From contig CAZYSY010000095.1 in NCBI GenBank assembly GCA_964650295.1, forward strand, positions 74-64,073: DNA of 64,000 nucleotides. The letters are read 5' to 3'. Below, piece by piece: positions 23,976 through 64,000 of the stretch. A program made the translations under genes and the position numbers. The DNA comes from an uncultured Caldilineales bacterium. Lineage in GTDB: Bacteria; Chloroflexota; Anaerolineae; J102. Every line of letters begins with the position of its first letter. Position 1 is the stretch's first letter. A model generated the notes under the pieces. The model saw only the letters and a list, made by a program, of their open reading frames with translations. It was not told where the DNA came from and did not search any database.

Positions 23976-23986
23976 GAGTTGATTCT

Positions 23987-26900: not shown

Positions 26901-29900
26901 CGTTGCGTCAGCGCCTACCCGAATACATGATTCCCGCGGCTTTTGTGCTGTTGGATGAATTGCCGCGGCTGCCCAATGGCAAGATCGACCGCCATTCTCT
27001 GCCTGAGCCAGAGGGTGAACGCCAGGTGGGGCAGGATTTCGTCGCGCCGCGCGATGCCTTGGAATTGTATTTGGCAGACATGTGGCGAGCGCTGTTGGGG
27101 GTGCGTGAGATTGGCGTAAACGACAATTTCTTCGAGTTGGGCGGCAATTCCATTCTGGGAGCGACATTTGTCAATCGTTTGCAGGATCGGTTGGGCGAAT
27201 ACATCTATCTGGTGGCGTTGTTCGACGCTCCCACCATTGCGCAACTGGCCGCTTATCTACGAGAAAACTATCCTATAGGCGTGGCGCGCATGTTGGGTGA
27301 GGATGCTGACGCGGCAGCTCAAACCGTGGCTCGGGCCGCACACGCTCAGGTGGTCACGCCGGCAGACCTGCGCCGGCTACGCGAGCTCATCGTTCCCCTG
27401 CCGCCCCGGCCCGCATCACTGGCGGGTGGGCCAAAAAATCCCCGGGCTGTGTTCATCCTTTCCGCACCTCGGTCTGGCTCCACGCTGCTGCGCGTCATCC
27501 TGGGAGGCAACCCCCGTCTTTTCGCTCCTCCTGAGTTGCAATTGCTCAATTACAACACCCTGGCCCATCAGCAGGCCGCATTGGGCAATGAGCGGGATGA
27601 ATTCTGGCTGGATGGCATCTTGCGGGCTATTATGGAGCTGCGTCAGTGTGATGTGGAGGAGGCCCAAGCCATCTTCCGTTCCTATATCGAACAGAATCTG
27701 ACCATTAAACAATTCTATGGCGTGCTCCAATCCTGGTTGGGCGACCGCATCTTTGTCGATAAAACGCCCAACTATGCTCTGGATGAGCAGGTGCTGCGGC
27801 GGGCGGAAGAGGATTTTGCCGATCCTCTTTACATCCACCTCGTCCGTCATCCATATGCAGTAATTCCCTCCTTCGAGAAAGCCAAGCTCCACGTCTTCTA
27901 TCCTCCCTTTTTCAAAGGAGAACATCCATTTACTCCTGGCCAACTGGCTGAACTCATCTGGCTCGTCAGCCATCAAAACATCCTCAGCTTCTTGCAAGAT
28001 GTGCCAGAGCAGCGGCAACATCGCGTGTATTACGAAGACTTGGTGCAACATCCTTATGAAACAATCAGCAACCTATGCAGTTTCCTCGGTGTCGATTTTC
28101 ATCCCGACATGTTGGAGCCGCAAAAGAACCCCAAGCGACGTATGACCGATGGCATCCATCCTCTGGCGCGCATGGTGGGCGATGTGCGTTTCTTTGAGCA
28201 CAAAGGCATTGATGGCCGTAACGCATATCGCTGGATGGAGAAGCTCGAGGTGGATTATCTCAGCGAGATGACCTGGCAAATGGCCAGCGATTTGGGGTAT
28301 GAGCGTTTACGAGGTTGGCCCAGGCCCGGCGAAAGCCAGGCGCTGGATGCGATCACGCCGCAGCCGCGGGTGGTGGACCAGGAAACTGGCGTTGTCGAAA
28401 ATCTGCCACTCTCCTTCGGACAGGAACGCCTCTGGTTTTTGCATCAGCTGGATCGGGAAAGCGCCAGCTATAACATGCCTTTGGCGTTGCGCATGAGGGG
28501 AGCGTTGCATGTTGCCGCTCTGGAAGAGAGCCTGAACCGGGTGATCCATCGGCATGAGGTGCTCCATACAAGTTTTCCTGCCATCCAGGGGCGCTCTGCC
28601 CTGGCACTGCATCCTGACCTGCATCTGACCTTGGTGGCAGAAGATCTGAACCCGTCGGCAGATGTCATGGCCAGCGCCCAGGAGCTGACTTCCGGTGAGG
28701 CGCAACGTCCTTTTGATTTGGAGCATGGGCCTTTGGTGCGGGCGCGACTTTTGCGCCTGGGGCCCGAGGATCATCTTTTGCTTCTCACCATGCATCACAT
28801 CGTGGCTGATGGCTGGTCCATGGGGGTGTTCGTGCGGGAGGTGGCGGCTTTTTATCGGGCGCTGGTGGCGGGGGAGGCAATAAACCTGCCTGAGCTGCCA
28901 GTGCAATACGCAGATTTCGCCTTTTGGCAACGCCAATGGTTGCAACGAGCGGCAGCGCAACGCCAATTGGCTTATTGGAAGCGCCAACTGGCTGGAGCTC
29001 CCGCACTGTTGGAACTTCCCACCGATTTTCCTCGCCCCCAGGAGCCTACCGAGCGGGGCACTTTCGAGACATTTGCATTGCCAGCGACTCTGGTGGAGCC
29101 ATTGCGCGATCTGGCCAATGAGCAGGGAGCTACCCTGTTCATGGCATTGGTCGCCCTTTTCGAAGTCCTCCTTTATCGCTATTCTGGACAAGAGGATTTC
29201 AACCTGGGCACGCCTGTGGCCGGGCGCACCCGCGCCGAGTTGGAGCCGCTCATCGGATTTTTCGTCAACACCCTGGTGTTACGGGCTGATCTTTCGGGCC
29301 AGCCCGACTTCCGGCAACTATTGGCCCGGGTGCAGGATGTGACCGTGCAGGCTTTCGCCAACCAGGATCTGCCCTTCGAGATGCTGGTGGACGCGTTGCA
29401 GCCGCAGCGGGCCCTGGGACATTCCCCTTTGTTTCAAGTTATGTTTGTGTTGCAAGACGCACCTACCGACGCGTTGCAGTTGCCCGAGTTGACCATCTTC
29501 CCTCAACCCGTAGACACAGGCGCGGCCAAGTTCGATCTCACCCTCTCCATCACCGACATGGGGGGGGAGCTGCGCGGCCTGTTGGAATACAATACAGACC
29601 TTTTTCATCAACAGACCATCCTCCGTATGATTCAGCATCTGCGTCTGCTATTGGAGGGCGTGGTGGCCAACCCGGATCAACCTGTATCCACGTTGCCCAT
29701 GCTCACTCCAGCCCAGAAACGCATGATTTTGCACGACTGGAATGGCCCCGAGGTTGAATATCTCCATTTGCGCCCCGTTCATGAATTGATCGCTGCTCAG
29801 GCCCAACGCACGCCTGAGGCCACTGCGCTCATCTTCGCTGGTCCTGAAAGCGCTCAGACCAAAACCATGAGCTATCGCGAGCTGGATCGCCGCGCCAATC

Positions 29901-33127: not shown

Positions 33128-33202
33128 ATGAGCAAATCTTCTCGCAAGAACATCGAATCTATTTATCCCCTTTCGCCTACACAACAGGGTATGTTGTTTC
33201 AC
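33128..33202 (+). other. COM-type acceptor N-terminus
   Basis: 'MSKSSRKNIESIYPLSPTQQGMLFH'. Compare 'MSKSNIENIYPLSPMQQGMLFH' at 47884. Confidence 0.6.
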
Positions 33203-39760: not shown

Positions 39761-39854
39761 TCTGCGCATCATGGAAAATCGTGATCTACTGAAATTGACG
39801 AAGGCGCGACAACCTCGCAGAGATGATTTTTCCCACCCATTATTGATTTTTTCT

Positions 39855-47883: not shown

Positions 47884-47949
47884 ATGTCAAAGTCAAACAT
47901 CGAGAACATTTACCCCCTTTCACCCATGCAGCAAGGCATGCTCTTCCAC
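47884..47949 (+). other. COM-type acceptor N-terminus
   Basis: 'MSKSNIENIYPLSPMQQGMLFH'. Confidence 0.6.
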
Positions 47950-50900: not shown

Positions 50901-53900
50901 CTTCGAGCTGGGTGGACATTCTTTGCTGGCCACGCAGTTGATCTCGCGGGTGCGCAGCGCCTTTCAGGTCGAGATCCCTGTGCGCACCCTTTTCGAACAT
51001 CCCACCATTGCTCAGTTGGCTCAGGCCATCCAACAGGCTCAGGAAGACGCCGCAGGCCTGAATTTACCCCCAATCGCGCCGGGCGAGCGGGATGATCGCA
51101 TTCCCCTTTCCTTTGCCCAGCAGCGTTTGTGGTTTCTGGATCAATTGGAACCTGGAAATCTGGCTTACAACATTCCAACGGTAGTGCGCTTGCAGGGACA
51201 GCTGGATGTGGTCGCGTTACAACGGAGCTTACAAGAAATCGTGCGACGGCATGAGGTGCTGCGCACCCGTTTCCTGGCCGACGGAGGCCAGCCCCACCAG
51301 GTCATCGAGCCCGAGCTGCAACTGGAACTGCCTGTCATTGATCTCAGCCATCTGCCCGAGACCGAGCGAGAGGTGGAAGCCCGACGGCGCGCCACAGAAC
51401 TGGTGCGCCAACCTTTCGATCTGGCTCGGGATCCCCTGTTGCGAGGGATGTTGCTGCGCCTGGGAGCTGAAGAGCATATGGCGGTCATGGTCATGCACCA
51501 CATCGTCTCCGACGCTTGGTCGATTGGCATTTTTATTAATGAATTGACGATGCTCTACCAAGCCTTTCATCAAGGCCAGCCTTCGCCTCTGCCCGAACTT
51601 CCCATTCAGTACGCCGACTACGCTATGTGGCAGCAGCGCCATTTGCAGGGCGAAGCTCTGGACGCACAATTAGCCTACTGGAGGCGGCAACTGGCGGGAG
51701 CCCCCGCGTTGTTGGATATTCCCACCGATCGCCCCCGACCTCCAGTACAGACTTCCACCGGCGCCAGCTACAACTTTCAGCTTAGTCCCAAACTTTCGCG
51801 TCGGTTACGGCAGGTGGGGCGCGAGCAGGGGGCGACGTTGTTCATGGTGTTACTGGCTGGCTACCAGGCATTGCTTTCGCGCTATTCGGGCCAGGAGGAT
51901 ATCAGCGTGGGCTCCGCGTTGGCCAATCGCACCCGGGCTGAGACCGAACCCCTAATTGGATTTTTCATCAACACTCTGGTCTTCCGCACCAGCTTGGCGG
52001 GCGATCCCAGCTTTCGAGAGCTGTTGCGACGGGTGCGAGAAGTGGCTTTGGGCGCATATGCGCATCAGGATGCACCCTTTGAGATGTTGGTAGATGCATT
52101 ACAGCCCGAACGCGATCTCAGCCATTCCCCTCTGTTCCAGGCCGCGTTCTCTTGGCAAAACATCCCCATGCAGGCCCGGCGACTCGAGGGGCTGACAGTG
52201 GCTCCGGTGGAGTTGGAAAGTGGCGTGGCACAGTTTGATTTGCTGCTGACCATGGAGGAGCGCGGTGAGATCATCACTGGTAACATGGATTATAACGCAG
52301 ATCTCTTCGATGCGAGCACCATCCAGCGTATGATGGGGCATTATCAACGTTTGTTGGAAGGCGCTGTGGCGCATTTGGATACTCCAGTGAACCGTCTGCC
52401 CTTGCTGACGCCCGAAGAAGAGCAACTGATGTTGGTGGAGTGGAATCGCACCGAAGCGCATTTCTCTGCGGATACTACTATTCATCAGCTTTTCCATGAG
52501 CAGGCGGCTCGCACTCCTGCAGCGCCCGCGGTTTGCTTTGCAGATCACGTACTCACTTACGCCGAGTTGGAGGCCCGCGCCAATCAGCTGGCGCATCACC
52601 TGCAGAAGCTGGGGGTGGGCCCTGAAACAGTGGTGGGGGTTTGCACTACTCGTTCTCCCGAGATGGTGGTGGGGATTTTGGGCGTGTTGAAAGCGGGTGG
52701 AGCGTATTTGCCTCTGGACCCCAACTACCCCGCTGAGCGTCTGGCCTACATGATCCAGGATTCCCGCACGCCGGTGCTATTGACCCAGGCTTCGTTGTTG
52801 CCCCGTCTGCCAGTGCATGAAGCCACGACCGTGTTGTTGGATGAGCATTGGCCACAGATTGCGCGGGGACCAGCATATGCCCCCGAATGTCGATCCACAG
52901 CCGACAACCTGGCGTATGTAATCTACACGTCGGGCTCGACGGGCAAACCCAAGGGCGCGATGTTGCAACACCGCGGTTTGTGCAATCTCACCGAGGTGCA
53001 GCGACGGGCGTTCTTCTTGCAAGAGGGCAAGCGCGTGTTACAATTCTCGGCGCTCAGTTTCGACGCTTCGGTGTGGGAGATCTTTCAGGCGTTGCGCAAT
53101 GGCGCGGCCATCTGCCTGGCGCGACAGGAGCAACTGACCTCTGGCCCCGAATTACTGAAGTTGATGCAGGAGCAGCGCATCACAACTGCCACGCTCCCTC
53201 CATCCTTGCTTTCGGTGCTGCCCGTGGCAGAGCTCCCTCATCTCGAGACGTTGATCTCGGCGGGAGAGCATTGTGCGGGCGAAATTGTGGCCCGTTGGGC
53301 TCCGGGACGCCGGTTTTTCAATGCTTATGGCCCGACCGAAACCACGGTGTGTGCGTCCATGTATCTCATCGATGGCGAGAAGTCATACCCGCAAGGGCCG
53401 CCCATCGGCAAACCCATTGCCAACTTCAAGTTGTATGTGTTGGACTCCCATTTGTTGCCTACACCCATCGGCGTGCCCGGTGAACTTTACATTGCTGGCG
53501 TTGGCTTGGCCAGGGGATATCTGCATCGACCCGAGCTTACCGCCCAGCGTTTCTTGCCCAATCCATTTGTGACAGAGCCTGGAGCTCGCATGTATCGCAC
53601 CGGCGACCTGGTGCGCTGGCTACCCGATGGCAACATCGAGTTCCTGGGCCGTATCGATCATCAGGTGAAGGTGCGGGGCTTCCGCATCGAGCTGGGAGAG
53701 ATCGAGGCGGTATTGCGCACGCATCCCCAGGTGGATGATGCGGTGGTGTTGGCTCGTTCCGATGTGCCCGGCGACACACGATTGGTGGGCTATGTGGTCA
53801 CTAGCGCTGGAGAAGCGCCCTCTACCGATGATTTGCGTCACTTTTTGCGCTCCAAATTGCCCGAATACATGGTTCCCGCTTTTATCATTCCCCTGGAAGC

Positions 53901-54300
53901 GTTTCCGCTGACGCCCAGCGGTAAGGTCGATCGTCAGTCGCTGCCCGCACCAGACGCCACTCGTCCTCAGCAAGAGACGCCCTACGTGGCTCCACGCACC
54001 TCCACCGAGGAAAAACTGGCGAGTATTGCCGCCACCTTGTTGGGGTTGGAACGAGTGGGCGTTGAAGACAATTTCTTCGAGCTGGGTGGGCACAGCCTGT
54101 TGGCCACGCAATTCATTTCCCGTGTGCGCGACGCCTTCGGCGTAGAGGTGTCCCTGCGGCAGTTGTTCGAGGCGCCCACCGTGGCTGGCATCGCCGCGGC
54201 TATCGAAAAGATGCAGCAGGCTGGGCCGTCGACGCAACGCCCCAGTATTGGTCGGGCGTCGCGCCGCGGCCGCCGTATGAAACGCTCCGACTTGAAATAA
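47884..54300 (+). CDS. NRPS: DCL-type C-A-PCP (M12) and C-A(Phe)-PCP (M13)
   Basis: 2138-aa ORF. 'MSKSNIENIYPLSPMQQGMLFH' and 'HHHILFDGWS'. A 'YVIFTSGSTGQPKGV'. PCP 'FFELGGHSLLATQLISRV'. C 'HHIVSDAWS'. A 'YVIYTSGSTGKPKGA'. PCP 'FFELGGHSLLATQFISRV'. Basic tail 'QRPSIGRASRRGRRMKRSDLK'. Confidence 0.95.
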   Translation: MSKSNIENIYPLSPMQQGMLFHSLYDPEDDVYVEQMYCKLVGPLDTVAFATAWRQLIQRHAILRTAYVWEDVKEPLQVVLRQVELPLVQEDWRSLSPAEQEQRLHEALTTARKQGFDLGKPPLMTLALYQIADDVYYFVWTHHHILFDGWSFPILLQETFTLYEAARQGRRAHLPPARPFSHYIAWLKKQDKEQARAYWQRTLAGFTTPTPLVVDEPKPQQGQGGGSRAEQEVWLSPEISDKLNALARQNQLTMSTLVQGAWALLLHRYSGEDDVMFGATVSGRPPELPGAEMMVGLFINTLPVRALIDEELPLRVWLQDLQARQAEQRRYEYSTLVQIREWSDAQRGVPLFESILVFENYPVDPAMASQQGSLRIEDLHSIERTNYPLTLVSGSGQQLLLKISYDTSRFHDDTIQRMLGHLRTLLEGMAVDLEQPLRTLPMLTTEEQQQLLVEWQGPEVNFPAEATVVSLFDAQAAATPAAPALQFGDQVVSYAELQARANQLAHHLLGLGVQPGEMVGLFVEKSVEMVVGLLGILKAGAAYVPIDPTYPAERVAYMLRTADACWLITDTPERAQMAARTTSPEHILLLTDAAVAQAPPTRPPVLINPEQTAYVIFTSGSTGQPKGVLVSHRALANHAQAMMAATELGPSDRMLQLISLSFDAAGEEIYPTLLAGATLVIPASSRELLGQEVARACEEAGITVLHMPAAVWHVVVDDLLANDGRLEAHLRLLMLGGDAPSASRLHAFGHMLGKDIPFINLYGPTEATITSVFYRTTIADAVDPVPIGRPIANNQVYVLDKAQRLAPVGVPGELYIGGAGLANGYLNQPQLTAQAFVENPFHPGQRLYRTGDLVRWLPDGNLLFLGRVDDQVKIRGFRVEPGEVEHVLNSLAAVQDAAVVVREDESSGQKQLVAYVAPEEVDAAALRTQLQTRLPEYLIPSAFVFLPELPRLPGGKLDRRSLPSPTPTRAASGAGYAPARTPAEELLIAIWQGVLGVEQLGVHDNFFELGGHSLLATQLISRVRSAFQVEIPVRTLFEHPTIAQLAQAIQQAQEDAAGLNLPPIAPGERDDRIPLSFAQQRLWFLDQLEPGNLAYNIPTVVRLQGQLDVVALQRSLQEIVRRHEVLRTRFLADGGQPHQVIEPELQLELPVIDLSHLPETEREVEARRRATELVRQPFDLARDPLLRGMLLRLGAEEHMAVMVMHHIVSDAWSIGIFINELTMLYQAFHQGQPSPLPELPIQYADYAMWQQRHLQGEALDAQLAYWRRQLAGAPALLDIPTDRPRPPVQTSTGASYNFQLSPKLSRRLRQVGREQGATLFMVLLAGYQALLSRYSGQEDISVGSALANRTRAETEPLIGFFINTLVFRTSLAGDPSFRELLRRVREVALGAYAHQDAPFEMLVDALQPERDLSHSPLFQAAFSWQNIPMQARRLEGLTVAPVELESGVAQFDLLLTMEERGEIITGNMDYNADLFDASTIQRMMGHYQRLLEGAVAHLDTPVNRLPLLTPEEEQLMLVEWNRTEAHFSADTTIHQLFHEQAARTPAAPAVCFADHVLTYAELEARANQLAHHLQKLGVGPETVVGVCTTRSPEMVVGILGVLKAGGAYLPLDPNYPAERLAYMIQDSRTPVLLTQASLLPRLPVHEATTVLLDEHWPQIARGPAYAPECRSTADNLAYVIYTSGSTGKPKGAMLQHRGLCNLTEVQRRAFFLQEGKRVLQFSALSFDASVWEIFQALRNGAAICLARQEQLTSGPELLKLMQEQRITTATLPPSLLSVLPVAELPHLETLISAGEHCAGEIVARWAPGRRFFNAYGPTETTVCASMYLIDGEKSYPQGPPIGKPIANFKLYVLDSHLLPTPIGVPGELYIAGVGLARGYLHRPELTAQRFLPNPFVTEPGARMYRTGDLVRWLPDGNIEFLGRIDHQVKVRGFRIELGEIEAVLRTHPQVDDAVVLARSDVPGDTRLVGYVVTSAGEAPSTDDLRHFLRSKLPEYMVPAFIIPLEAFPLTPSGKVDRQSLPAPDATRPQQETPYVAPRTSTEEKLASIAATLLGLERVGVEDNFFELGGHSLLATQFISRVRDAFGVEVSLRQLFEAPTVAGIAAAIEKMQQAGPSTQRPSIGRASRRGRRMKRSDLK
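49285..50773 (+). other. Adenylation domain, M12; code DAEHMGLITK (unassigned, same family as M6/M7)
   Basis: Anchors: 'LSFDAAGEE', 'TVLHMPAA', 'LLMLGGDA', 'INLYGPTEATIT', 'GGKLDR'. Confidence 0.8.
52480..53947 (+). other. Adenylation domain, M13; code DAWTIAAVCK (Phe)
   Basis: Anchors: 'LSFDASVWE', 'TTATLPPS', 'TLISAGEH', 'FNAYGPTETTVC', 'SGKVDR'. Confidence 0.88.
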
Positions 54301-54327: not shown

Positions 54328-57300
54328 ATGACCGACGAACAACACCTCTCCCCATCCGATTTACCACCAGAACCTAAGGCCGAGGAGGAGGTCTTTGTAT
54401 TTCCCACCACCTTTGGCCAAAAGCGGTTGTGGTTCCTGGATCAATTCGAGCCTGATAGCCCTTTCTATAACATTCCTATGGTTTTGCGCATTGGCGGGCC
54501 GTTGCAGGTGGATGTATTGACGCGGGCTTTGAATGGGGTGATTCAACGACATGAGATCTTGCGCACCACTTTTGCGGTGATGGATGGCGAGCCCGTGCAG
54601 GTCATTTCTCCTCGCTTGTCGCTGGAAATCCCGTTGGAGGATTTGAGTCATCTTCCCGCAGAGGTGCGTGAGCAAGAGGCGCTGCGCCAGGCCATGCAAG
54701 AAGCGAAACGACCTTTTAATCTCTCCACTGGCCCCCTGCTGCGCGGCAAGATCATTCGCTTGCAGCCGCAAGAGCACATCATTCTCTTTACCATGCACCA
54801 CATCATCTCTGATGGTTGGTCCATGGGGATTTTTGTGCGAGAGATCGCCATTCTGTACAATGCTTTTTCTCAGGGACGGCCATCTCCTCTGCCCGAGTTG
54901 CCCATCCAATATGCCGATTATGCGTTGTGGCAGGAGGAGCAGTTGCAAGGTGAGACGTTGGAACGACAACTGAGGTATTGGCAGGAAAAATTGGGCGGGG
55001 AGTTGTCCTTGCTGGAACTGCCCAGCGATAGACCTCGGCCCGCAGTGCTGAGTTCGCGCGGAGCCACAGTGGCGCGACATCTACCCGAAAAACTGGTCAC
55101 GGGCCTGAAGAAGCTGGCCAACGAAGAGGGGGCAACCTTGTTCATGGTTTTATTGGCTGCGTTTCAGACTCTGCTCTATCGCTACACTGGCCAGGAAGAC
55201 ATTAGCGTGGGCTCGCCCATCGCCAACCGCACGCTGCCAGAGGTGGAGCCCCTCATCGGGCTTTTCATCAATACTCTGGTCTTTCGCACCGATCTGTCTG
55301 GCGACCCTAGCTTCCGTGAGTTGGTGCGGCGGGTGCGGGAAACCGCACTGGGTGCGTTTGCCCACCAGGACCTGCCTTTCGAGCAGCTGGTAGAGGCGTT
55401 GCAGCCTGAACGAGATATGAGCCATACGCCTCTATTTCAGGTGATGTTCATCCTGCAGAACGCGCCCATGCAGGCCCAACCCGTAGGAGATTTGGTTTTC
55501 AGCAGTATCGATGTGGATGCGGGTACGGCCACTTTCGATTTGACGTTGGCCATGACCGAACTGGCCGATGGATTCGATGCATCGGTGGAGTATAGCACCG
55601 ATCTTTTCGACGAGCCCACCATTCAGCGTCTATTGGATCATTTCCAGACCCTGTTGGAAGGCGTGATTGCCCAACCCGACGTAGCCATTAGCGCTTTACC
55701 CATCATGTCTGCGGCGGAGCTTGAACGGCTGCAGGCGATGTGGGCTCCAGCACATCAGGTTTTGCCCTCCACCGATGTAGCGCAGCTCATTGCAGAGCAG
55801 GCGCAGGTCTCGCCCACGGCGATCGCTGTGGAGCAGGGCCAGGTGCAGTTGAGTTATGCCGAACTGAACCGGCGCGCCAATCAGCTGGCGCATTATCTGC
55901 AAACGCTGGGGGTGGGGCCTGATGTGTTGGTGGGGATCAGTCTACCTCGTTCTCCTCAGTTGATTGTGGGATTGCTTGGCATTCTCAAGGCAGGGGGCGC
56001 TTATCTGCCCCTAGACCCATCCTATCCTGCCGATCGTCTCACGTTCATGGTGCAGGATGCCGGGCTGGAATATTTACTGACACAAACCGATTTGAGTTCC
56101 TTGCCCGCGTTTGCCCATGTCTCTACCGTGGTGGCCTTAGATGAGTTGGAGGGAACACTGGCGCAACAGCCCGGAAGCGATCCTGAACTGGCGGTAGCAG
56201 GCTCACATCTGGCCTATATCATCTACACATCTGGCTCCACGGGCCAACCCAAAGGCGTGGCTGTGACAAGACGCGCTTTGCTGAACCATAATCTGGCTGT
56301 GGCGGATTTGTTCGAGTTGACGCCTGAAGATCGGGTGTTGCAGTTTGCCACCATCAATTTCGACGCCGCTGTAGAAGAGATTTTCCCCACCTTACAACAG
56401 GGGGCAACCCTGGTCCTGCGGAAAGCGGGAGATGTCATTTCTCCTCTGGAACTGACCCGCATGGTAGCGGAGAAACGACTAACTTTCCTGGATCTACCCA
56501 CCGCGTACTGGCATCAGTGGGTGCAGGAACTGGCGCGAGCAGGCATGGCTTTGCCCGATTCATTGCGTTTGCTGGTGGTGGGAGGCGAAAAGGTTGAGCC
56601 AGCTCGCTATGACGCCTGGCGTAAACTGGCAGGCCCTGATGTGATCTGGCTCAATACCTACGGCCCCACCGAAACTACCATCATCGCCACTTCCTACAAT
56701 CCCGCCTCTTGGGAAGATCACCGTCCGGGCCAGGAGCTTCCTATTGGCCTGCCTTTGCCCAATGTGCGTTGCTACGTGTTGGATCAGCATCTGCAACCTG
56801 CGCCGGTGGGCGTGCCCGGAGAATTGTGGATTGGCGGCGAAGCCCTGGCCAGGGGCTATTTACACCGGCCCGAGCTGACGGCATCTTCATTTTTGCCTGA
56901 TCCTTTTGCCGCTGAACCTGGAGCTCGCATGTATCGCACCGGTGATTTGGTTCGTTTTCGCCCCGATGGCAGGCTGGAGTATCTGGGAAGGGTGGACACC
57001 CAGGTGAAGATTCGTGGCTATCGCATCGAACCGGGCGAGGTGGAATCGATGCTGAGCAGACATCCGGGTCTGCGTGAGTGTGCGGTGGTGGCGGTTACAG
57101 ATCCTGCGGGCAACAAACGCCTGGTGGCCTATGTGACGCCCGCACAGCAGCCTTCTCCCTCACCCGGGGAATTGCGTCGCTATCTGCTGGAGCGCCTCCC
57201 CGAATACATGGTTCCTTCCTTGTTCATGTTGCTGGAAGAACTGCCTCTGACCCCCACAGGCAAGTTGGATCGCAGGCATCTGCCTGAGCCCAACTGGGAG

Positions 57301-60300
57301 GAGCGGATTAGTGAGAAGGAGTTTGTTTCTCCTCGCACTCCCACCGAAGAAATGATGACCGGTCTCTGGCGCGAGGTGTTGGGGTTGAGCCACATCAGCG
57401 TCTTGGATGATTTCTTCGAGTTGGGGGGGCATAGCCTGCTGGCAACGCAGCTGCTTTCCCGCATCCGCGAAAGTTTTAATATCGAATTGCCTTTGCGCGT
57501 TATCTTCGAATCCTCTATCCTGGCCGATTTGGCGGAGATGGTCGATGTGGCCCAACGTAGCGCCGCTGGCCTGGCTCCTCCTCCCATCCGGCCTGCCCCC
57601 CGCCAGGGTCCCCAACCTGTTTCTTTTGCCCAGCAACGCTTGTGGTTCCTGGATCAACTCGAGCCCAATAGTCCCTACTACAACATCCCTGAGGGTATGC
57701 GGGTTCGGGGCCCCCTGGATGTGAATGTCCTGGAACGCTGCCTGAACGAAGAGGTGCGACGGCATGAGTCCTTACGCACCACCTTTAGCACGGTGGATGG
57801 CAAACCTGTGCAAGTCATCCATCCCCAACTCTCGTTGCATGTTTCTGTCGTCGATCTTAGCCATCTGCCTCGCGCAAAGCGAGAGGCGGAAGTCATGCGG
57901 TGGTCCCGCGAAGAGGCCCGCACACCTTTCGTGCTTTCCGAAGGGCCTTTGCTGCGGATGCGGGTGTTGCGGCTGGCCGCAGATGAGCATGTCATCCTCA
58001 CCACCATGCACCACATCATCAGTGATGAATGGTCGGCCAATGTCTTTAGTCGTGAGATTGCAATTCTTTACGACGCCTTTTCTCATGGTCGACCTTCACC
58101 CCTGCCCGATCTACCTATCCAATATGCAGATTTTGCTCGCTGGCAGCGGGAATGGTTACAGGGCGAAGTGTTGGAGGCGCAATTAGCCTATTGGCGTGAA
58201 CAATTGCAGGGCGCTCCCGCCTTACTGGAACTGCCCACCGATTATCCCCGTCCTCCCATTCAGACCTATGCGGGCGATTATATGGCCTTCAAGCTTTCGC
58301 CCCAGCTCAGCGCGGACATCAAGCAGCTGTTCCAGCAAGAGGGCGTGACGCTGTTCATGGGATTGTTGGCCGCGTTCAAGACCTTACTCTATCGCTATTC
58401 GGGGCAAGAAGATATTGTAGTGGGCACTCCCATCGCCAACCGTACCCGGGCCGAACTGGAAAATATCATCGGCTTTTTCGTCAACACCCTGGTGTTACGC
58501 ACCCATCTGAGTGGTGAACCCACATTTCGAGAGGTGTTGCAGCGGGTGCGCGAGACCTCCTTGGGCGCTTATGCGCATCAGGATACGCCTTTCGAGATGT
58601 TGGTGGACGAGCTACAGCCGAAGCGAGACCTGAGCCATTCTCCGCTGTTTCAGGTGATGTTTGTCATCCAAAACGCTCGGCCGGGCGAAGCTCAGGTCAT
58701 GTCTGATTTGTTGCTAACGCCGCTGGAGGCTCATAGCGGCGCCGCCAAGTTTGATTTGACCATGTTCGTGCTGGATGAGCCAGATGGCCTGAGCGGCGCT
58801 CTAGAATACAACACCGATCTCTTTGCCGCCTCCACCATCGAGCGGATGCTGGCACATTTTCAAAATCTGTTAACCGCGTTGGTGGCTGAACCAGATCTGC
58901 CCATCTCCCGCCTGTCGCTGCTGAGTCAAGATGAGCGACATTACCTTTTGCATGAATGGAACAATACTGCCGCACCCTATCCTGACCTCTGCGTGCATGA
59001 TCTAGTGCAGGCGCAGGTGCAGCGCACTCCGCAAGCTGTCGCAGTCACTGATGGCGAAAGTGTTCTGACCTACGCCCAACTTGACGCTCAGGCTAATCAG
59101 GTAGCTCATTTTCTGCGCAGTCAGGGGGTGGGGCCAGATGATCTGGTGGGAGTCATGATGCACCGAACTCCCGATGTTGTGTCCTCTCTTCTGGGAGTGC
59201 TGAAGGCTGGGGCCGCGTATGCGCCTATGGATCCCACCTATCCCGCAGAACGCATTCGCTACATGATTCAGGATGCAAATATTCGAGTATTACTCATCGA
59301 TGGTGATGTGCGACGGGATGCTGGTTGGTGGGACGTGCTGCAAGCAGCATTGGCCGATGTATTGGTGATCTCTCTGGATCATCCCGCCATCGTCTCTCAG
59401 CCCACGACCAGTCCCGCCCCCCTGGCTGCGCCCCACCATCTGGCTTATGTGATCTACACCTCGGGCTCCACCGGAAGACCCAAAGGCGTGATGTTGGAGC
59501 ATCGCAATGTGGTCAACTATCTCACTTGGTGTCAGCATGCTTATCCCGTCGGCCAAGGCGTGGGGTCCCCGGTTCACTCCTCCATCTCCTTCGATCTTAC
59601 AGTCACCAGCATATTCACTCCCCTGATCAGCGGCGGAGCGGTGCGTCTGGTGAGGGAGGATGCAGGCATCGAAGGTTTGGGCGAGGCCATGTTGGAAAGC
59701 GACGGATTCAGTCTGGTCAAGCTCACTCCCGCCCATCTCGAGTTGTTGAGCCAACAAATATCGCCCCAACAGGCGGCGACGTGCACCCGCGCCTTTATCA
59801 TTGGCGGCGAAGCCCTGATGCCGGGACATATTGCCTTCTGGCGTGAACATGCGCCCGAGGTGAAGTTGGTGAATGAGTACGGTCCCACTGAGACCGCGGT
59901 GGGATGTTGCGTTTATACAGCATCGCCTGATGTACGTTACGAAAGTTCCATTCCCATTGGTCGCCCCATCATCAATGCTCGTCTCTATGTGTTGGATGAA
60001 TATCTTGAGCCTGTGCCCATTGGCGTGCCAGGTGAGCTTTACATCGCGGGCGCAGGCGTGGGCAGAGGCTACCTCCACCAGCCAGACCTGACCGCAGAGC
60101 GATTTTTGCCCGATCCCTTTAATTCTGAACCTGGCTCCCGCATGTATCGCACTGGCGATCTGGCCCGTCATACTATTCATGGCGAACTGGAATTCCTGGG
60201 ACGGATCGATTATCAAGTGAAAGTGCGAGGCTTCCGTATTGAACTGGGCGAGATTGAGGCCAACCTGGCAGAATTCCCTGGCTTGCGTGATGTAATCGTG

Positions 60301-63300
60301 TTGGCGCGCGAAGATACGCCAGGACAAAAGCGTCTGGTGGCCTATGTGCGTGCAGCGGCGGGAACAGAGGTTAGACTGTCTGAGCTTCGGGAATTTTTAC
60401 GAGATCGCCTGCCCGAATACATGATTCCCGCGGCCTTTGTGGTGCTGGATGAATTTCCTCTGACGCCCAATGGCAAAGTAGACCGCAAAGCCTTGCCCGC
60501 GCCTGATGTCCGTCGAGATGAATTGGATAAACCCTATGTGGCCCCACGCACGCCGGTGGAGGAATTTTTGGCGCAACAGTTCCAGGAAGTGTTGGGCGTG
60601 GAACGCGTCGGCATTCATGACAACTTCTTCGAACTGGGGGGCGATTCATTGCAAGCCGCAACGTTCATCAATCGTCTCCAGGAGAAATTCCAGGTGGCCA
60701 CTCGTGTGCGTTCAATCTTCTTGGCGCCCACTGTGGCTGAACTGGCCTATTACCTGCAAGAATATTACCCGACCATTGTCTCCCAAATCGCCCACGGCGA
60801 ACAAGAAACCATCCCCGATGAGCTGCGTCATGAATTGCTGCAAGCCACCACCGTCATCGATGGCGATGTTGTGGCCGCTTTTCGGCAATTGATTCCTGCT
60901 GCGCCGCAAAGGGAGACGCTCGCGCCAGCAGGAAAGAACCCTCCGGCAGTGTTCATCATCTCCCCGCCCCGTTCTGGCTCAACCCTGTTGCGAGTGATGT
61001 TGGCGGGGCATCCTCAGCTCTTCGCTCCTCCTGAGCTCGATTTACTCTCCTTCGCCACCATGTCCGAGCGACGACGCGCCTTTCGCGGGCGTTACGAATT
61101 CTGGCTAGAAGGTGCAATCAAGGCCGTGTCTGAGGCCCGCGGCATTTCTGTGGCTGAGGCGGAGCAATTGCTCAGCCAGTATGAGGCCCAGGACATGAGC
61201 ACCCGGCAGTTTTACGCCTTGCTGCAGGAATGGATCGGCGAACGGTTGTTGGTGGACAAGACGCCCGTCTACGCGCTGAACCTGGATGTTTTGCAGCGGG
61301 CGGAAATAGATTTCGAAAACGCCCTTTACATCCATCTGGTGCGCAATCCCTACGCCACCATTTATTCCTTCGTCGAAGCCAGATTGGATAATCTATTTTG
61401 CCGTTTCGAGCATCCATATAGCCGTCGCGAACTGGCTGAGCTCACCTGGATTGTCAGCCATCAAAACATCTTGCACTTCCTGGCAGATATCCCCGACTCC
61501 AGGCAACATCGCATTTATTACGAGGATATGGTGAGACACCCCCAGGAGGAAATGCAGCGCTTAAGCGATTTTCTTGGCATCACCTACCACCCAGACATGA
61601 CTCGTCCCTATCTGGGCGATCGTATGACCTCGGGCCTAAAACCCGGCATGCAGATGGTGGGAGATTTCAAGTTCTATTTACACAAAGGCATCGACGCTAA
61701 CGCCGCCAACCGGTGGCGTAAGCGACATATCGGGAACTTCCTTAGCGGTGTGGGCGTCGAACTGGCCCGCAGCCTGGGTTATGATGAATCAAGCCTCTTT
61801 GTGCCGCCAGTGGGTAGCATCTCCACCTGGCTACCCATCCAGCCCGCGCCCAGAGATGGTGATTTACCCCTTTCTTTTGCCCAGCAGCGCCTGTGGTATC
61901 TGGATCAGATCGAGCCCGGCAACCCCTTCTACAACATGCCCACCGCAGTGCGATTGCAAGGGGAGTTGGATGTGGCGGCGCTCTCCGCGGCCATCAATGA
62001 GATCGTACGCAGGCACGAAACCTTACGCACCAGCATTATCACCGAGGTGGGAGAGCCCCGACAAGAGATTTCTCCCCACGCTCAGGTAGTCTTGCGAGTC
62101 ATCGATCTTTCTTTCCTGCCTGCACCTGAACGTGAGGAGCAAGCCCAGGCCATGGCCGAAGAAGAAGCCGAGACGCCTTTTTATCTGGATCATGGTCCCC
62201 TATTCCGGGCGCGGTTGCTACGCCTGGCCACAGAGGATCATGTGCTGTTACTCACCTTCCACCACATCATCTCCGATGGTTGGTCGATGCGGGTATTTGT
62301 GCGAGAGCTTGCCACCCTCTATCGCTCATTCCGGCAAGGAAAACCCTCCCCTCTCCCCGAGCTGCCCATCCAGTACGCCGATTTTGCCTACTGGCAGCGA
62401 CAATGGTTTCAGGGGGAGGCATTGGAAGCGGAGCTAAACTATTGGCGACAACAACTGGAGGGGGCGCCTGTCTTGCTGGAGCTTCCTAGCGACCATCCTC
62501 GCCCTCCAGTGCAAACCTATCATGGCGCCGCCTTATATTTCTCGGTTCCCCCAAACCTGGTGCGGCGTCTGGAAGCATTGAGCCAACGTGAAGGCGTCAC
62601 CCTATTCATGACGTTGCTGGCCGCATTTCAGACCCTGCTGCACCGCTACTCCCGTCAGGATGATATCTGCGTCGGCGCTCCCATTGCTAATCGTCCCCGC
62701 GCCGAGTTGGAGTCACTCATCGGTTTCTTCGTCAACACCCTAGTAATGCGCACCGATCTCTCGGGCGCTCCCAGCTTCAGCGAATTGTTGCAGCGGGTGC
62801 GCGAGACCGCCATCGGCGCATACGATCATCAAGATTTGCCCTTCGAATATCTGGTGGATCATCTGGGCGTGGAGCGCAGCCTGAGTCATAGTCCCCTCTT
62901 CCAAGTCATGTTCACTCTGGATTCAGCCGCGGCCACAACTCAGGAAGTGAGACTTTCAGAACTCACCATCCGCGCGGTGGAAACCGATGTCACCACCGCT
63001 CGCTTCGATCTGGTGCTTTCGATGATTCAGGATGGTGATAGTCTGGCCGGGGCCATGGAGTACAACACCGATTTGTTCGAGGAGGAGACCATTCAGCGCA
63101 TGGTGGAGCATTTCCTCACTCTGCTGGAGGACGTTGCGGTTCGCCCCAACGCGTCGATCGAGCATCTGCGGCTGATGTCTACAGCTGAGATAGCACAGGT
63201 GCGGGCCTGGAATGCAACCGAGAGCGACGTCCCTCTGCATGAGCCGGTCTTCTTGCGCATCCAACAGCATGCACGAACACAACCCCAGGCAGTGGCTGTG

Positions 63301-64000
63301 CGCTTCGTTGGCCAGGATGAGATAGAGCTAACCTATGCTGAATTGAACGCTCGCGCCAATCAACTGGGGCATCATTTGCGGGCTCTGGGCGTGCAGCCTG
63401 ACACCCCGGTGGGCATCCTGATGAATCGCTCCGCGGATATGATCGTGGCTCTGTTGGGGGTGATGAAGGCGGGCGCGGCCTACTTGCCTATCGATCCAAC
63501 CTATCCTCCAGAACGCATCCGCTACATGATCCAAGATGCGGGTGTGCAGGTGATGATTGCGGAGGCAGGAAGCGCGTTTGATGAAGTTTGGGCGCAGATC
63601 TGCCAGAATGAAATTCAAGATGTCGAACGCATCATGCTCGACCATCCAGCAATTGCAGCCCGCCCCACCACTGATCTCCCTCTTACCATTACGCCCGATA
63701 ATCTGGCCTACATCATCTACACTTCGGGCTCCACCGGTCGGCCCAAGGGCGTGATGTTGCATCATCGCGGGTTGACCAATCTGGTGTGGGCCCAGACGCG
63801 TGGGTTTGGGGTGGATGATCACGCACGTGTGTTGCAATTCGCGTCTTTTAGCTTCGATGCTTCGGTTTCCGAAATTTTCATGGCCTTGTATCCTGGGGGC
63901 GTTTTGGTGCTGAGTCCGCGCGAAACATTGCTTTCTCCTCCCGATCTGCTGAACTTGTTGCGCCAGCAGCGCATTACTGTGGTGACTCTGCCCCCCTCAT
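54328..64000 (+). CDS. NRPS, 3'-truncated by the window: C-A-PCP (M14), C-A(Asn)-PCP-ST (M15), C-A... (M16)
   Basis: Absent from the ORF track because it has no stop before 64000. I translated frame 1 directly over roughly 54328-54840, 56221-56700, 57961-58035, 59521-59940, 60901-61785 and 63841-64000 with no stops. No other frame-1 ORF is listed after 54300. Starts '[39 protein letters not shown]'. Motifs: C 'HHIISDGWS', 'HHIISDEWS', 'HHIISDGWS'; A '[15 protein letters not shown]', '[15 protein letters not shown]', '[15 protein letters not shown]'; ST '[15 protein letters not shown]'. Confidence 0.9.
   Translation, partial: [3224 protein letters not shown]
55777..57285 (+). other. Adenylation domain, M14; code DAEDVGTIIK (unassigned, Lys/basic-like, same family as M11)
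   Basis: Anchors translated from DNA: 'INFDAAVEE', 'TFLDLPTA', 'LLVVGGEK', '[12 protein letters not shown]', 'TGKLDR'. Confidence 0.8.
58993..60500 (+). other. Adenylation domain, M15; code DLTKIGEVGK (Asn)
   Basis: Anchors translated from DNA: 'ISFDLTVTS', 'SLVKLTPA', 'AFIIGGEA', '[12 protein letters not shown]', 'NGKVDR'. 9 of 10 match the canonical Asn code DLTKLGEVGK, with a conservative L/I change. Confidence 0.85.
60556..60756 (+). other. PCP domain, M15, ST-associated subtype
   Basis: '[26 protein letters not shown]'. Confidence 0.8.
60931..61785 (+). other. Sulfotransferase domain ST2 (CurM/Ols ST-like), in-line between PCP(M15) and C(M16)
   Basis: Translated codon by codon: '[34 protein letters not shown]', 'LVDKTPVY', '[16 protein letters not shown]', '[10 protein letters not shown]', '[10 protein letters not shown]', '[12 protein letters not shown]'. 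Co-linear with ST1 over its whole length. Confidence 0.85.
63247..64000 (+). other. Adenylation domain, M16 (partial); code begins D-A-S-T (Tyr-like), remainder outside the window
   Basis: '[15 protein letters not shown]', 'FSFDASVSE', 'TVVTLPPS'. Only positions 235, 236, 239 and 278 are visible. Confidence 0.7.

What the first reader, a model, noticed from the sequence alone, without database searches (positions are those of the whole stretch)
60931..61785. Second in-line sulfotransferase domain, attached to an asparagine-activating module
Seen in sequence:
- I translated 60901-61785 directly. ST2 ('[34 protein letters not shown]', 'LVDKTPVY', 'LYIHLVRNPYATIYSF', 'IYYEDMVRHP', 'GDFKFYLHKGID') follows the PCP of M15.
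- The M15 A-domain code DLTKIGEVGK is 9 of 10 identical to the canonical Asn code.
- ST2 precedes a canonical C domain ('LPLSFAQQRLWYLDQ', 'HHIISDGWS').
- The next A domain starts with a Tyr-like code (D-A-S-T).

Established knowledge: CurM-type STs sulfonate hydroxyls of carrier-bound substrates using PAPS. Asn has no hydroxyl.

Inference (speculative alternatives):
- (a) Asn is beta-hydroxylated in trans and then O-sulfated.
- (b) The acceptor is a remote hydroxyl already in the chain (Thr from M10, the statine OH, or a phenol).
- (c) The ST acts on the neighbouring Tyr-like residue.
- (d) The carboxamide is activated, for example toward a nitrile or a cyclised product.

Two mid-line ST domains in one NRPS suggest either a doubly sulfated product or repeated use of sulfate-leaving-group chemistry. 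I know of no described precedent for either.
Basis: partly seen in the sequence, partly recalled or inferred. Interest (0 to 1): 0.85.

Follow-up and report, generated by a model that had tools for sequence, protein, structure and literature searches.

The report
In-line sulfotransferase after an asparagine module
A complete, evolutionarily constrained CurM-type sulfotransferase domain sits between the carrier domain of an asparagine-loading module and the next condensation domain of a giant lipopeptide synthetase, and it belongs to a widespread, apparently undescribed class of mid-line sulfotransferase domains that mostly follow threonine, serine and tyrosine modules.

Summary
Window 60901-61785 encodes an intact sulfotransferase (ST) domain: Pfam Sulfotransfer_3 at 1e-34, CurM ST 4gbm at 7e-69, and a model with TM 0.85-0.89. 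It lies in the order C-A(DLTKIGEVGK, Asn)-PCP-ST2-C-A(DAST..). All PAPS-binding and catalytic motifs are present. Against its Caldilineae ortholog, dN/dS is about 0.05.

ST2 is not unique. Across 67 related loci from at least 8 phyla, A-PCP-ST-C is common. The ST is always fused to the upstream carrier. The A domain before it codes for Thr, Ser or Tyr far more often than A domains elsewhere (20/36 against 9/60). Seven NRPS termination modules end in A-PCP-ST-TE.

My best reading is that ST2 sulfonates, in cis, the beta-hydroxyl of a 3-hydroxy-Asn thioester on PCP15. The sulfate is either kept, as in the beta-sulfated Asn of mutremdamide A, or lost as a leaving group.

No hydroxylase is visible, because the contig ends inside the synthetase, so the acceptor remains inferred. 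Action on the downstream Tyr-like residue is disfavoured. Carboxamide activation has no support.

In-line NRPS ST domains are already known from OciA and DysB, but only on glyceric-acid starter units. I rate this a new variant of a known kind, with interest about 0.6.

The parts
54328..64000 (+). NRPS gene (last ORF, runs off the window): C14-A14-PCP14-C15-A15-PCP15-ST2-C16-A16(partial)
   Evidence: The ATG is at 54328 and there is no stop before the window end.
57616..58947 (+). C15 condensation domain of the Asn module; the active-site motif is the variant HHIISDEWS
59008..60480 (+). A15 adenylation domain, Stachelhaus code DLTKIGEVGK (Asn-type); normal length, with no inserted tailoring domain
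60553..60762 (+). PCP15 carrier domain with the GGDSL phosphopantetheine site (Ser codon about 60646-60648)
60763..60942 (+). PCP15-ST2 linker of about 60 aa; poorly conserved (55% identity to the L001 ortholog)
60901..61785 (+). ST2, a CurM-type PAPS-dependent sulfotransferase domain (Pfam core 60943-61590)
60967..60984 (+). 5'-phosphosulfate-binding loop PRSGST of ST2
   Evidence: Invariant in all 48 ST domains tabulated; see also the alignment to 4gbm.
61033..61041 (+). Catalytic Glu of the PPEL motif (61033-61035), and the residue two positions later, Asp (61039-61041), where CurM and OLS have His
   Evidence: The Glu aligns with the EET Glu of TPST2.
61258..61260 (+). Conserved Lys of VDKTP (K120 of ST2)
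   Evidence: Invariant.
61342..61368 (+). 3'-phosphate-binding motif R148...S156 (VRNPYATIYS)
   Evidence: R148 and S156 are invariant.
61867..63201 (+). C16, an ordinary LCL-type condensation domain after ST2 (HHIISDGWS)
63262..63999 (+). A16 (partial); its code starts D-A-S-T (Tyr-like)
27404..28303 (+). ST1, the other in-line ST of the same assembly line. It follows the PCP of the module coded DAEHLGAITK, has Gln at the +2 position, and belongs to a different ST lineage

Best explanation
ST2 is a catalytically competent, PAPS-dependent sulfotransferase domain. It works in cis on the intermediate held by the carrier domain immediately upstream (PCP15).

The acceptor is most likely the beta-hydroxyl of a 3-hydroxy-asparagine residue. 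That residue could be loaded as such by the Asn-coded A15, or made by a trans-acting beta-hydroxylase encoded outside the window. Its hydroxyl sits at the same position relative to the thioester as the beta-hydroxyl that CurM ST sulfonates.

The catalytic Glu (PPE) deprotonates the hydroxyl, which attacks the sulfur of PAPS held by the PRSGST loop, Lys120 and R148/S156. The ordinary C16 domain then passes the O-sulfonated peptidyl chain on. The released lipopeptide therefore most likely carries a beta-sulfated Asn, as in mutremdamide A.

What is shown: the domain's identity, its intact motifs, purifying selection, fusion to the upstream PCP, and the family-wide link to hydroxy-amino-acid modules.

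What is inferred: the hydroxylation of Asn, the exact acceptor atom, and the fate of the sulfate.
For: 1. Identity and integrity. Pfam gives 1e-34. 4gbm and 4gox match at 7e-69 and 1e-58, with the PSB loop, Glu, Lys and R..S motifs aligned. The model reaches TM 0.85-0.89 to 4gbm.

2. Selection. Against the Caldilineae ortholog L001, which has the same A(Asn)-PCP-ST-C order, the ST is 78% identical with dN/dS about 0.05. It is as constrained as C15, A15 and PCP15.

3. Partner carrier. In 59 ST-bearing ORFs the ST is always fused to the upstream carrier. In 21 of them the protein ends after PCP-ST or PCP-ST-TE. It is never fused only to the downstream C.

4. Acceptor class. A domains directly before an ST code for Thr, Ser or Tyr in 20 of 36 cases, against 9 of 60 elsewhere in the same loci (Fisher p = 6e-5, not corrected for phylogeny). 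Six more such cases occur in the metagenome loci. Counted as ST clusters at 70% identity, 16 of 33 clusters follow a Thr, Ser or Tyr module.

5. CurM-like geometry. NRPS endings A(Thr)-PCP-ST-TE exist in L023 and L047, which places the sulfonated OH at the beta position of the tethered acyl group.

6. Acceptor pocket. The residue two positions after the catalytic Glu tracks the upstream A code. It is Glu in 15 of 15 Thr cases, including L002, which sits inside the otherwise Asp-type Chloroflexota clade. It is Gln in 6 of 8 Ser cases, and His only in PKS or stand-alone STs.

7. Chemistry precedent. An N-delta-carbamoyl-beta-sulfated Asn residue occurs in mutremdamide A (perthamide C) (PMC3280575).

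8. The post-ST C domains are ordinary LCL domains, closest to other C domains of their own lines. There is therefore no sign of a partner specialised for elimination.
Against: - No Asn beta-hydroxylase is seen. The window holds only FAAL, PKS and NRPS genes. The source contig starts 370 nt before the FAAL gene and ends inside ORF9. Upstream of the FAAL in two orthologous clusters there is only an S8 peptidase followed by housekeeping genes.
- The Stachelhaus code cannot tell Asn from 3-hydroxy-Asn.
- ST2's closest relatives (the Chloroflexota 'Asp' clade) follow modules coded for Val-, Ile- or Leu-like and unknown residues. For all of them one must again assume trans-hydroxylation.
- At the ST1-type position the residue before the ST varies between related clusters, while the KR-containing PKS module two modules upstream is conserved. 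That pattern would equally fit a remote acceptor.
- One starter module coded Gly-like carries an ST (L056). This does not fit a beta-hydroxyl rule.
- Whether the sulfate is retained is not addressed by any result.
Confidence: 0.38

Rival explanations
1. The first step is the same: O-sulfonation of a beta-hydroxy-Asn on PCP15. The sulfate then serves as a leaving group. Loss of the acidic alpha-proton of the thioester gives an alpha,beta-dehydro-Asn, or a neighbouring nucleophile displaces the sulfate to close a ring. The final product then carries no sulfur at this position.
For: The nearest characterised relatives, CurM ST and OLS ST, exist only to make a leaving group (4gbm and 4gox; established knowledge of curacin and olefin synthase). 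NRPS endings A(Thr)-PCP-ST-TE copy that logic. ST-fold enzymes that dehydrate or cyclise through sulfate appear among the structural hits: retinol dehydratase and LGS1. A beta-sulfate next to a thioester should be prone to elimination (inference).
Against: No TE or other elimination partner follows ST2, and C16 is an ordinary LCL domain that is not part of any special clade. Three STs follow Tyr-coded modules, where elimination is impossible unless the residue is beta-hydroxylated. A stable beta-sulfated Asn is known in a natural product.
Confidence: 0.22
2. ST2 sulfonates a hydroxyl elsewhere in the peptidyl chain while the chain hangs on PCP15. Candidates are the Thr of module 10, the statine-type hydroxyl made by the KS-AT-KR-ACP module in ORF 16089-23975, or a phenol. 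On this reading the Asn itself is not modified.
For: Asn has no hydroxyl and no hydroxylase is visible. In the related clusters L002, L006, L007, L008, L015 and L024 an ST keeps a fixed place two NRPS modules after the KR-containing PKS module. The residue before it varies: Thr, Ser, Val- or Ile-like, or DAEH-type.
Against: Family-wide, the ST tracks the specificity of the immediately upstream A domain, and its +2 pocket residue covaries with that specificity. In-line tailoring domains normally act on the residue nearest the thioester (established NRPS knowledge). The Asn-PCP-ST-C unit is conserved as a block in L001 while the module before it was exchanged: A14 is only 50% identical and has a different code.
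Confidence: 0.15
3. ST2 acts on the Asn carboxamide itself. This could be N-sulfonation to an acyl sulfamate, or O-sulfonation of the imidic form followed by loss of sulfate to give a nitrile (beta-cyano-Ala) or a cyclised product.
For: The A15 code is plain Asn. The pocket residue is Asp instead of the His of CurM/OLS or the Glu of Thr-linked STs. N-sulfonation of a PCP-bound peptide is known for SulN in sulfazecin biosynthesis (PMC11298585).
Against: A carboxamide is a poor nucleophile, and no sulfotransferase is known to use one (own knowledge). The same Asp-type STs follow Val-, Ile- or Leu-like and Ser modules, which have no amide. SulN sulfonates an amine, not an amide.
Confidence: 0.07
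4. ST2 reaches forward and sulfates the phenol of the Tyr-like residue loaded by the next module (A16).
For: The A16 code starts D-A-S-T. Tyr-coded modules are associated with STs in three loci.
Against: In those three loci the Tyr module is upstream of the ST. Two of the proteins end right after PCP-ST (L016, L020). The ST is never fused only to a downstream module, in 0 of 59 ORFs. The codes of the A domains after STs are diverse: 15 of 20 are neither Thr, Ser nor Tyr.
Confidence: 0.04
5. ST2 is an inactive relic, or serves only as a structural spacer.
For: None beyond the absence of an obvious acceptor on Asn.
Against: All cofactor and catalytic motifs are intact. dN/dS is about 0.05 against the ortholog, as low as in the essential neighbouring domains. 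The fold is predicted with confidence.
Confidence: 0.03

Closest known systems
CurM ST (curacin A pathway, PDB 4gbm) and OLS ST (Synechococcus PCC 7002 olefin synthase, PDB 4gox)
   Same: The same domain family and fold: about 50% identity by my reading of the alignment; E = 7e-69 and 1e-58; TM 0.85-0.89. The PRSGST loop, catalytic Glu, VDKxP Lys and R..S motif are shared. Both are fused directly behind a carrier domain and act on its cargo.
   Different: CurM and OLS are the middle of an ACP-ST-TE ending of a PKS, and they prepare a decarboxylative elimination. ST2 sits mid-line between a PCP and a C domain of an NRPS elongation module, behind an Asn-coded A domain, with no TE. The residue two positions after the catalytic Glu is Asp instead of His.
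ST domains of OciA (Planktothrix cyanopeptolin/oscillapeptin E) and DysB (dysinosin)
   Same: A sulfotransferase domain built into an NRPS polypeptide. The sulfate is retained in the product (PMC2533009, PMC6520454).
   Different: Those STs belong to starter modules that load glyceric acid through an FkbH-like (GA) domain. ST2 follows an amino-acid A-PCP pair in the fifteenth module, and no FkbH-like domain is present.
SulN of sulfazecin biosynthesis
   Same: PAPS-dependent sulfonation of a peptide while it is still bound to an NRPS carrier domain (PMC11298585).
   Different: SulN is a separate protein acting in trans. It N-sulfonates the beta-amine of Dap, and the sulfamate then directs beta-lactam closure by the TE.
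Beta-sulfated asparagine of mutremdamide A (perthamide C), a Theonella sponge peptide
   Same: The predicted residue chemistry: a 3-hydroxy-Asn carrying an O-sulfate within a non-ribosomal-type peptide (PMC3280575).
   Different: This is only a product-level analogy. That review gives no biosynthetic genes for it. The residue is also N-carbamoylated, and the peptide is an 8-residue cyclic depsipeptide, not a line of 16 or more modules with a fatty acyl-polyketide start.
Tyrosylprotein sulfotransferases (TPST1/2)
   Same: The next-closest solved fold (E about 2e-8 by sequence, TM about 0.57). They have a Glu base in the equivalent position, and they sulfate a residue within a peptide.
   Different: They are free-standing Golgi enzymes that act on ribosomal proteins, and they use no carrier protein.

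Membership tests
CurM/OLS-type carrier-linked sulfotransferase domain (Pfam Sulfotransfer_3) | Significant match to the family profile over its full length | tested here: met
   PF13469 at 1.1e-34, 121 bits (cutoff 27), profile positions 1-215 of 216.
CurM/OLS-type carrier-linked sulfotransferase domain (Pfam Sulfotransfer_3) | Same fold as the solved CurM and OLS ST structures | tested here: met
   AlphaFold model with pLDDT 88.7. Foldseek gives 4gbm at E = 2e-27 with TM 0.85/0.89, and 4gox with TM 0.83/0.88.
CurM/OLS-type carrier-linked sulfotransferase domain (Pfam Sulfotransfer_3) | PAPS-binding motifs: the 5'-PSB loop PRSGST, the Lys of VDKxP, and the 3'-PB R...S | tested here: met
   All are present in ST2 and invariant across the 48 ST domains tabulated.
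CurM/OLS-type carrier-linked sulfotransferase domain (Pfam Sulfotransfer_3) | Catalytic Glu in the PPEL motif | tested here: met
   E45 of ST2 aligns with the Glu of CurM and OLS and with the EET Glu of TPST2. Its role as the general base is from my own knowledge of the CurM ST and TPST2 papers; I could not read the CurM ST paper.
CurM/OLS-type carrier-linked sulfotransferase domain (Pfam Sulfotransfer_3) | His two residues after the catalytic Glu (PPELH) | tested here: not met
   ST2 has Asp (PPELD) and ST1 has Gln. His occurs only in PKS-type or stand-alone STs and in one NRPS-linked ST known only from its first ~70 residues (L067).
CurM/OLS-type carrier-linked sulfotransferase domain (Pfam Sulfotransfer_3) | Fused directly after a carrier domain | tested here: met
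   PCP15 (GGDSL), then a linker of about 60 aa, then ST2.
CurM/OLS ACP-ST-TE off-loading tridomain | A thioesterase directly after the ST, carrying out decarboxylative elimination | tested here: not met
   ST2 is followed by a canonical C domain (HHIISDGWS) and another A domain. ST-TE endings do occur in other loci.
CurM/OLS-type carrier-linked sulfotransferase domain (Pfam Sulfotransfer_3) | PAPS-dependent sulfonation of a carrier-bound beta-hydroxyl | not testable with these tools
   This needs an enzyme assay or intact-protein MS.
NRPS starter-module ST for sulfated glyceric acid (OciA/DysB type) | An FkbH-like glyceric-acid loading domain next to the ST | tested here: not met
   The module is C-A-PCP-ST, with an amino-acid A domain of normal length and an Asn code.
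Asn-activating NRPS module | Stachelhaus code matching DLTKLGEVGK | tested here: met
   DLTKIGEVGK, 9 of 10. The same 9-residue code occurs in the ortholog L001 and in the non-ST Asn modules of L011 and L049.
3-hydroxy-Asn pathways (AsnO/SyrP/diiron hydroxylase plus an Asn-coded A domain) | A beta-hydroxylase gene in the cluster | tested here: inconclusive
   There is none in the window and none upstream of the FAAL in two orthologous clusters. The downstream end of the cluster is beyond the contig.

The most novel reading that the evidence does not exclude
Mid-line CurM-type ST domains may form a widespread, undescribed class of NRPS tailoring domain that uses sulfate as a leaving group on beta-hydroxy-aminoacyl thioesters. 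On this reading ST2 converts a hydroxy-Asn into a dehydro-Asn, or into a ring-closed or otherwise rearranged residue. The sister architecture A(Thr)-PCP-ST-TE would release peptides with a C-terminal enamide by decarboxylative elimination. This would be a new route to dehydro and enamide residues in non-ribosomal peptides.
Probability: 0.25. Interest if true: 0.8.

Novelty: new variant of a known kind. Interest (0 to 1): 0.6.

Why it matters
Sulfotransferase domains inside assembly lines are textbook only for the curacin and olefin-synthase off-loading trick, plus two glyceric-acid starter modules. This study shows that the same domain is embedded behind amino-acid modules in dozens of clusters from Chloroflexota, Acidobacteriota, Calditrichota, Verrucomicrobiota, cable bacteria and others. 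There is a clear preference for Thr and Ser modules, and a pocket residue tracks that preference.

This gives genome miners a rule for predicting sulfated, or sulfate-activated, residues in peptides from uncultured phyla. It also points to a possible biosynthetic origin for rare residues such as beta-sulfated Asn.

The Asn-linked ST2 is the member that fits the simple rule least well, so it is the most informative one to test.

Tried and rejected
1. Looking for an Asn beta-hydroxylase. The window has no non-PKS/NRPS gene except the FAAL. The source contig (ENA ERZ27262694 k141_25861, 67.6 kb) starts 370 nt before the FAAL and ends inside ORF9. FAAL orthologs show only an S8 peptidase and housekeeping genes upstream.

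2. Testing whether the C domain after the ST is a specialised, elimination-coupled subtype. It is not. Post-ST C domains cluster with ordinary C domains of their own lines.

3. Looking for hydroxylase domains inserted in the A domains before STs. The Chloroflexota A domains, including A15, are of normal length.

4. Pfam scans of small genes between or next to NRPS genes in related loci. These found a discrete ST (L015), a methyltransferase, transporters and regulators, but no oxygenase.

5. Reading the CurM ST structure paper for the role of the His. It is not held, so residue roles rest on the alignments and on my own knowledge.

6. Literature searches for mid-line NRPS ST domains and for the unusual A-domain codes DAEH.. 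and DAED.. Nothing was found.

7. L067 looked like an ST2 relative placed directly after a Lys-like module. It turned out to be an unrelated line (about 40% identity), with only the conserved N-terminus of the ST present. I draw no inference from it.

8. NCBIfam gives only a weak NoeE match, far below its cutoff.
Full report
**What is in the window.** All large ORFs lie on the + strand and form one hybrid assembly line:
- 207-1982: fatty acyl-AMP ligase (FAAL).
- 2064-8843: ACP-KS-AT-DH-ER-KR-ACP.
- 8958-15512: KS-AT-ACP-C-A-PCP.
- 16089-23975: KS-AT-KR-ACP-C-A-PCP.
- 23972-33097: C-A-PCP-ST1-C-A-PCP-E.
- 33128-39565 and 47884-54300: C-A-PCP-C-A-PCP each.
- 39771-47774: C-A-PCP-C-A-PCP-E.
- 54328 to the window end: C-A-PCP-C-A-PCP-ST2-C-A(partial).

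The window is part of ENA contig ERZ27262694:k141_25861 (67.6 kb). That contig starts 370 nt before the FAAL gene and ends inside the last NRPS gene. No tailoring genes are therefore visible. The closest relatives of ST2 are in Chloroflexota MAGs (Caldilineae 77%, Chloroflexia 65%, Anaerolineae about 60%), so the source is probably a Caldilineae- or Anaerolineae-like bacterium.

**Check of the observation.**
- It matches Pfam Sulfotransfer_3 over the whole profile (1e-34). It matches the crystal-structure sequences of CurM ST (4gbm, 7e-69) and OLS ST (4gox, 1e-58).
- An AlphaFold model built on 28 sequences has pLDDT 88.7 and superposes on 4gbm with TM 0.85/0.89. Only the segment around residues 241-260 is uncertain.
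- My own extraction of the specificity code gives DLTKIGEVGK for the A domain just before ST2 (Asn-type, 9 of 10) and D-A-S-T.. for the truncated A domain after it.
- PCP15 has an intact GGDSL site, and C16 has HHIISDGWS.

**Is ST2 functional?** The PRSGST 5'-phosphosulfate loop, the Glu of PPEL, the Lys of VDKTP and the R148...S156 3'-phosphate motif are all present. They are invariant in the 48 ST domains tabulated. The Glu aligns with the EET Glu of TPST2, which I know as that enzyme's catalytic base.

Against the ortholog in Caldilineae MAG contig L001, which has the same A(Asn)-PCP-ST-C order, the ST is 78% identical with dN/dS about 0.05. The comparison values are 0.07 for C15, 0.11 for A15 and 0.07 for PCP15. 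dS is saturated, so these ratios are only rough. The A domain of the preceding module has been exchanged (50% identity, different code). The Asn-PCP-ST-C block is thus conserved as a unit. A decayed domain is excluded.

**The wider family.** Scans with ST2 returned 44 genome loci and 21 metagenome loci. I annotated them with HMMs built from the window's own domains and extracted all A-domain codes.
- A-PCP-ST-C is common. It occurs in Chloroflexota, Acidobacteriota, Calditrichota, Verrucomicrobiota (Chthoniobacterales), Bacteroidota, a cable bacterium (Electronema), Sphaerotilus and others.
- Two STs in one line also recur. L013 has Tyr-ST and Thr-ST in one ORF, L003 has two, and L031 has a tandem ST-ST.
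- The A domain directly upstream of an ST is Thr-coded (DFWNIGMVH) in 15 cases, Ser-coded in 8 and Tyr-coded in 3.
- In the genome loci this amounts to 20 of 36 against 9 of 60 for all other A domains (Fisher p = 6e-5, not corrected for phylogeny).
- Counted as ST clusters at 70% identity, 16 of 33 clusters with a readable amino-acid code follow a Thr, Ser or Tyr module.
- The A domains after the ST are diverse.

**Which carrier does the ST serve?** In 59 ST-bearing ORFs the ST is fused to the upstream carrier without exception. In 38 the chain continues into C, KS or ST. In 21 the protein stops after PCP-ST or PCP-ST-TE, and the next module is on a separate protein. The ST is never attached only to the downstream module.

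**A link back to CurM chemistry.** Seven ORFs end in ST followed by a thioesterase domain (Pfam Thioesterase 1e-20 to 1e-39). One is a PKS of the OLS type (L026). Six are NRPS termination modules C-A-PCP-ST-TE. Two of these have a Thr code (L023, L047), three have DGFFHGEVW and one has DAFGFGMME.

In Thr-S-PCP the hydroxyl occupies the same beta position relative to the thioester as the hydroxyl sulfonated by CurM ST. The simplest family rule is therefore that the ST sulfonates the beta-hydroxyl of whatever acyl group sits on its own carrier.

**A pocket residue that tracks the acceptor.** Two residues after the catalytic Glu, CurM, OLS and the other PKS or stand-alone STs have His.
- All 15 Thr-linked STs have Glu. 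This includes L002, which sits inside the otherwise Asp-type Chloroflexota clade.
- Six of 8 Ser-linked STs and 2 of 3 Tyr-linked STs have Gln.
- ST2, L001 and their Chloroflexota relatives have Asp. ST1 has Gln.

In TPST2 the equivalent position (Arg101) contacts the substrate peptide; this is from my own knowledge and was not checked here. The covariation supports the view that the acceptor is the residue loaded by the upstream A domain. It also shows that ST1 and ST2 are different tools. They are 51% identical and fall in different clades: ST1 with the Calditrichota locus L024, whose upstream code DAEHFGMIA resembles that of module 6.

**What ST2 most likely does.** Asn has no hydroxyl, but 3-hydroxy-Asn is a frequent NRPS building block. 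Its modules carry Asn-type codes (own knowledge of CDA and lysobactin-type pathways). A beta-sulfated Asn is documented in mutremdamide A (perthamide C) (PMC3280575).

I therefore favour O-sulfonation of a 3-hydroxy-Asn thioester on PCP15. The hydroxyl would be supplied either by a free-amino-acid hydroxylase plus direct activation, or by a trans-acting hydroxylase on the PCP. The same assumption is needed for ST2's closest relatives. These follow Val-like (DALWLGGTF), Ile- or Leu-like (DAFFLGVTF, DAWFLGVTY) and unknown (DVWYLGGIC) modules. An Asp in place of Glu would leave more room for a bulkier beta-substituent, but this is speculation.

**Fate of the sulfate.** The C domains after STs are ordinary LCL domains, closest to other C domains of their own lines. 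For example, C16 is 57% identical to C15, and one post-ST C domain of L013 is 75% identical to a normal C domain in the same protein. No specialised elimination partner is present, and I lean slightly towards retention. Elimination to a dehydro residue remains a serious rival, given the CurM precedent and the ST-TE endings.

**Weak points.**
- No hydroxylase has been seen.
- At the ST1-type position in related clusters (L002, L006-L008, L015, L024), the ST keeps its place two modules after the KS-AT-KR-ACP module while the preceding residue varies. That pattern would also fit a remote, conserved acceptor such as the statine-type hydroxyl.
- One Gly-like starter module carries an ST (L056).
- The enrichment statistic is not corrected for phylogeny.

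**Comparison with what is known.**
- ST2 is a member of the CurM/OLS ST domain family by sequence, fold and motifs. It is not part of an ACP-ST-TE off-loading unit, and it lacks the family's His.
- In-line NRPS STs are published for OciA (PMC2533009) and DysB (PMC6520454), but only beside FkbH-type glyceric-acid loading.
- SulN sulfonates a PCP-bound peptide in trans, on an amine (PMC11298585).
- Four literature searches found no description of ST domains behind amino-acid elongation modules. The library lacks most subscription journals, so this is not proof of absence.

**Verdict.** ST2 is a real and functional-looking domain. It is a new variant of a known kind, and a member of a widespread family that I found no description of. 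The acceptor (3-hydroxy-Asn) and the fate of the sulfate are inferred, not shown. Interest is about 0.6.

Noticed in passing
window 27404-28303 (ST1), with L002, L006, L007, L008, L015 and L024: ST1 follows a module coded DAEHLGAITK. That A domain scores closer to the Lys-activating MxcG than A15 does (379 against 308 bits). In related clusters an ST keeps the same place, two NRPS modules after a KS-AT-KR-ACP module and a conserved D[AQ]ENIGAIT module. The residue before the ST varies: Thr, Ser, Val- or Ile-like, or DAEH-type. The ST1 acceptor is unclear. It could be a hydroxylated basic residue, an amine (sulfamate), or the statine-type hydroxyl.
   Followed up: partly
L023:4926-5858, L047:9129-10034, L010:10868-11665, L012:10877-11674, L066:10868-11791, L058:5279-6109: These NRPS termination modules have the order C-A-PCP-ST-TE, and two of them have a Thr code. 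This is the CurM off-loading didomain grafted onto an amino-acid module. By analogy it would release a C-terminal enamide through decarboxylative elimination. I found no description of this arrangement.
   Followed up: partly
L013 6539-20860; L003 3-15589; L031 2-10342: Other lines also carry two in-line STs. L013 has Tyr-ST and Thr-ST in one ORF, and L003 has two in consecutive ORFs. L031 has a tandem ST-ST after a Ser module.
   Followed up: partly
L057 2093-12085: The order is KS-AT-KR-ACP-ST-C-C-A(DIWEVTADD)-PCP. The A code after the ST resembles the Dap codes listed for sulfazecin-type monobactam clusters (DIWEITADDK). This may be an in-line-ST variant of that chemistry.
   Followed up: no
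L015 15378-16460: A discrete sulfotransferase gene (weak Sulfotransfer_3/1 match) sits between NRPS genes of a Calditrichaeota cluster that also has an in-line ST after a Ser module.
   Followed up: no
L068 5761-9384 (-) and L069 4382-6988 (+); also L016 547-1938: A large subtilase (Peptidase_S8 with a PA domain) lies directly next to the FAAL gene at the start of two orthologous clusters, followed by housekeeping genes. An S8 peptidase also precedes the Tyr-ST module of L016. It could be a maturation or processing protease.
   Followed up: no
window 57616-58947 (C15); also the C domains starting at ORF6 aa 1080 and ORF8 aa 1074: The C domain of the Asn module has HHIISDEWS (Gly replaced by Glu in HHxxxDG). 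Two other C domains have HHIVSDAWS. The catalytic His is kept in all of them.
   Followed up: no
window 15513-16088: This is the only sizeable gap in the line (577 nt, between ORF3 and ORF4). GC drops to 39-45% at 15700-16100, against about 57% elsewhere. There is a promoter-like site at 15814-15843 and no convincing ORF (no MbtH-like gene).
   Followed up: partly
window modules 5, 6, 7, 11, 12 and 14 (A codes DQENIGAIT, DAEHLGAIT x2, DAEDIGTIV, DAEHMGLIT, DAEDVGTII): Six of the 12 complete A domains have Glu at code position 239, as Orn/Lys-type domains do (own knowledge). The product may be a polycationic lipopeptide that also carries one or two sulfates. None of these codes appears in the searchable literature.
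   Followed up: partly
hits P0015, P0019, P0082, P0109 and others: Most database relatives of ST2 are proteins of about 430-450 aa; many carry a carrier (PP-binding) domain ahead of the ST. They occur in cyanobacteria and Thiothrix (for example Anabaena sp. PCC 7108 and Thiothrix nivea). Their function was not examined.
   Followed up: no
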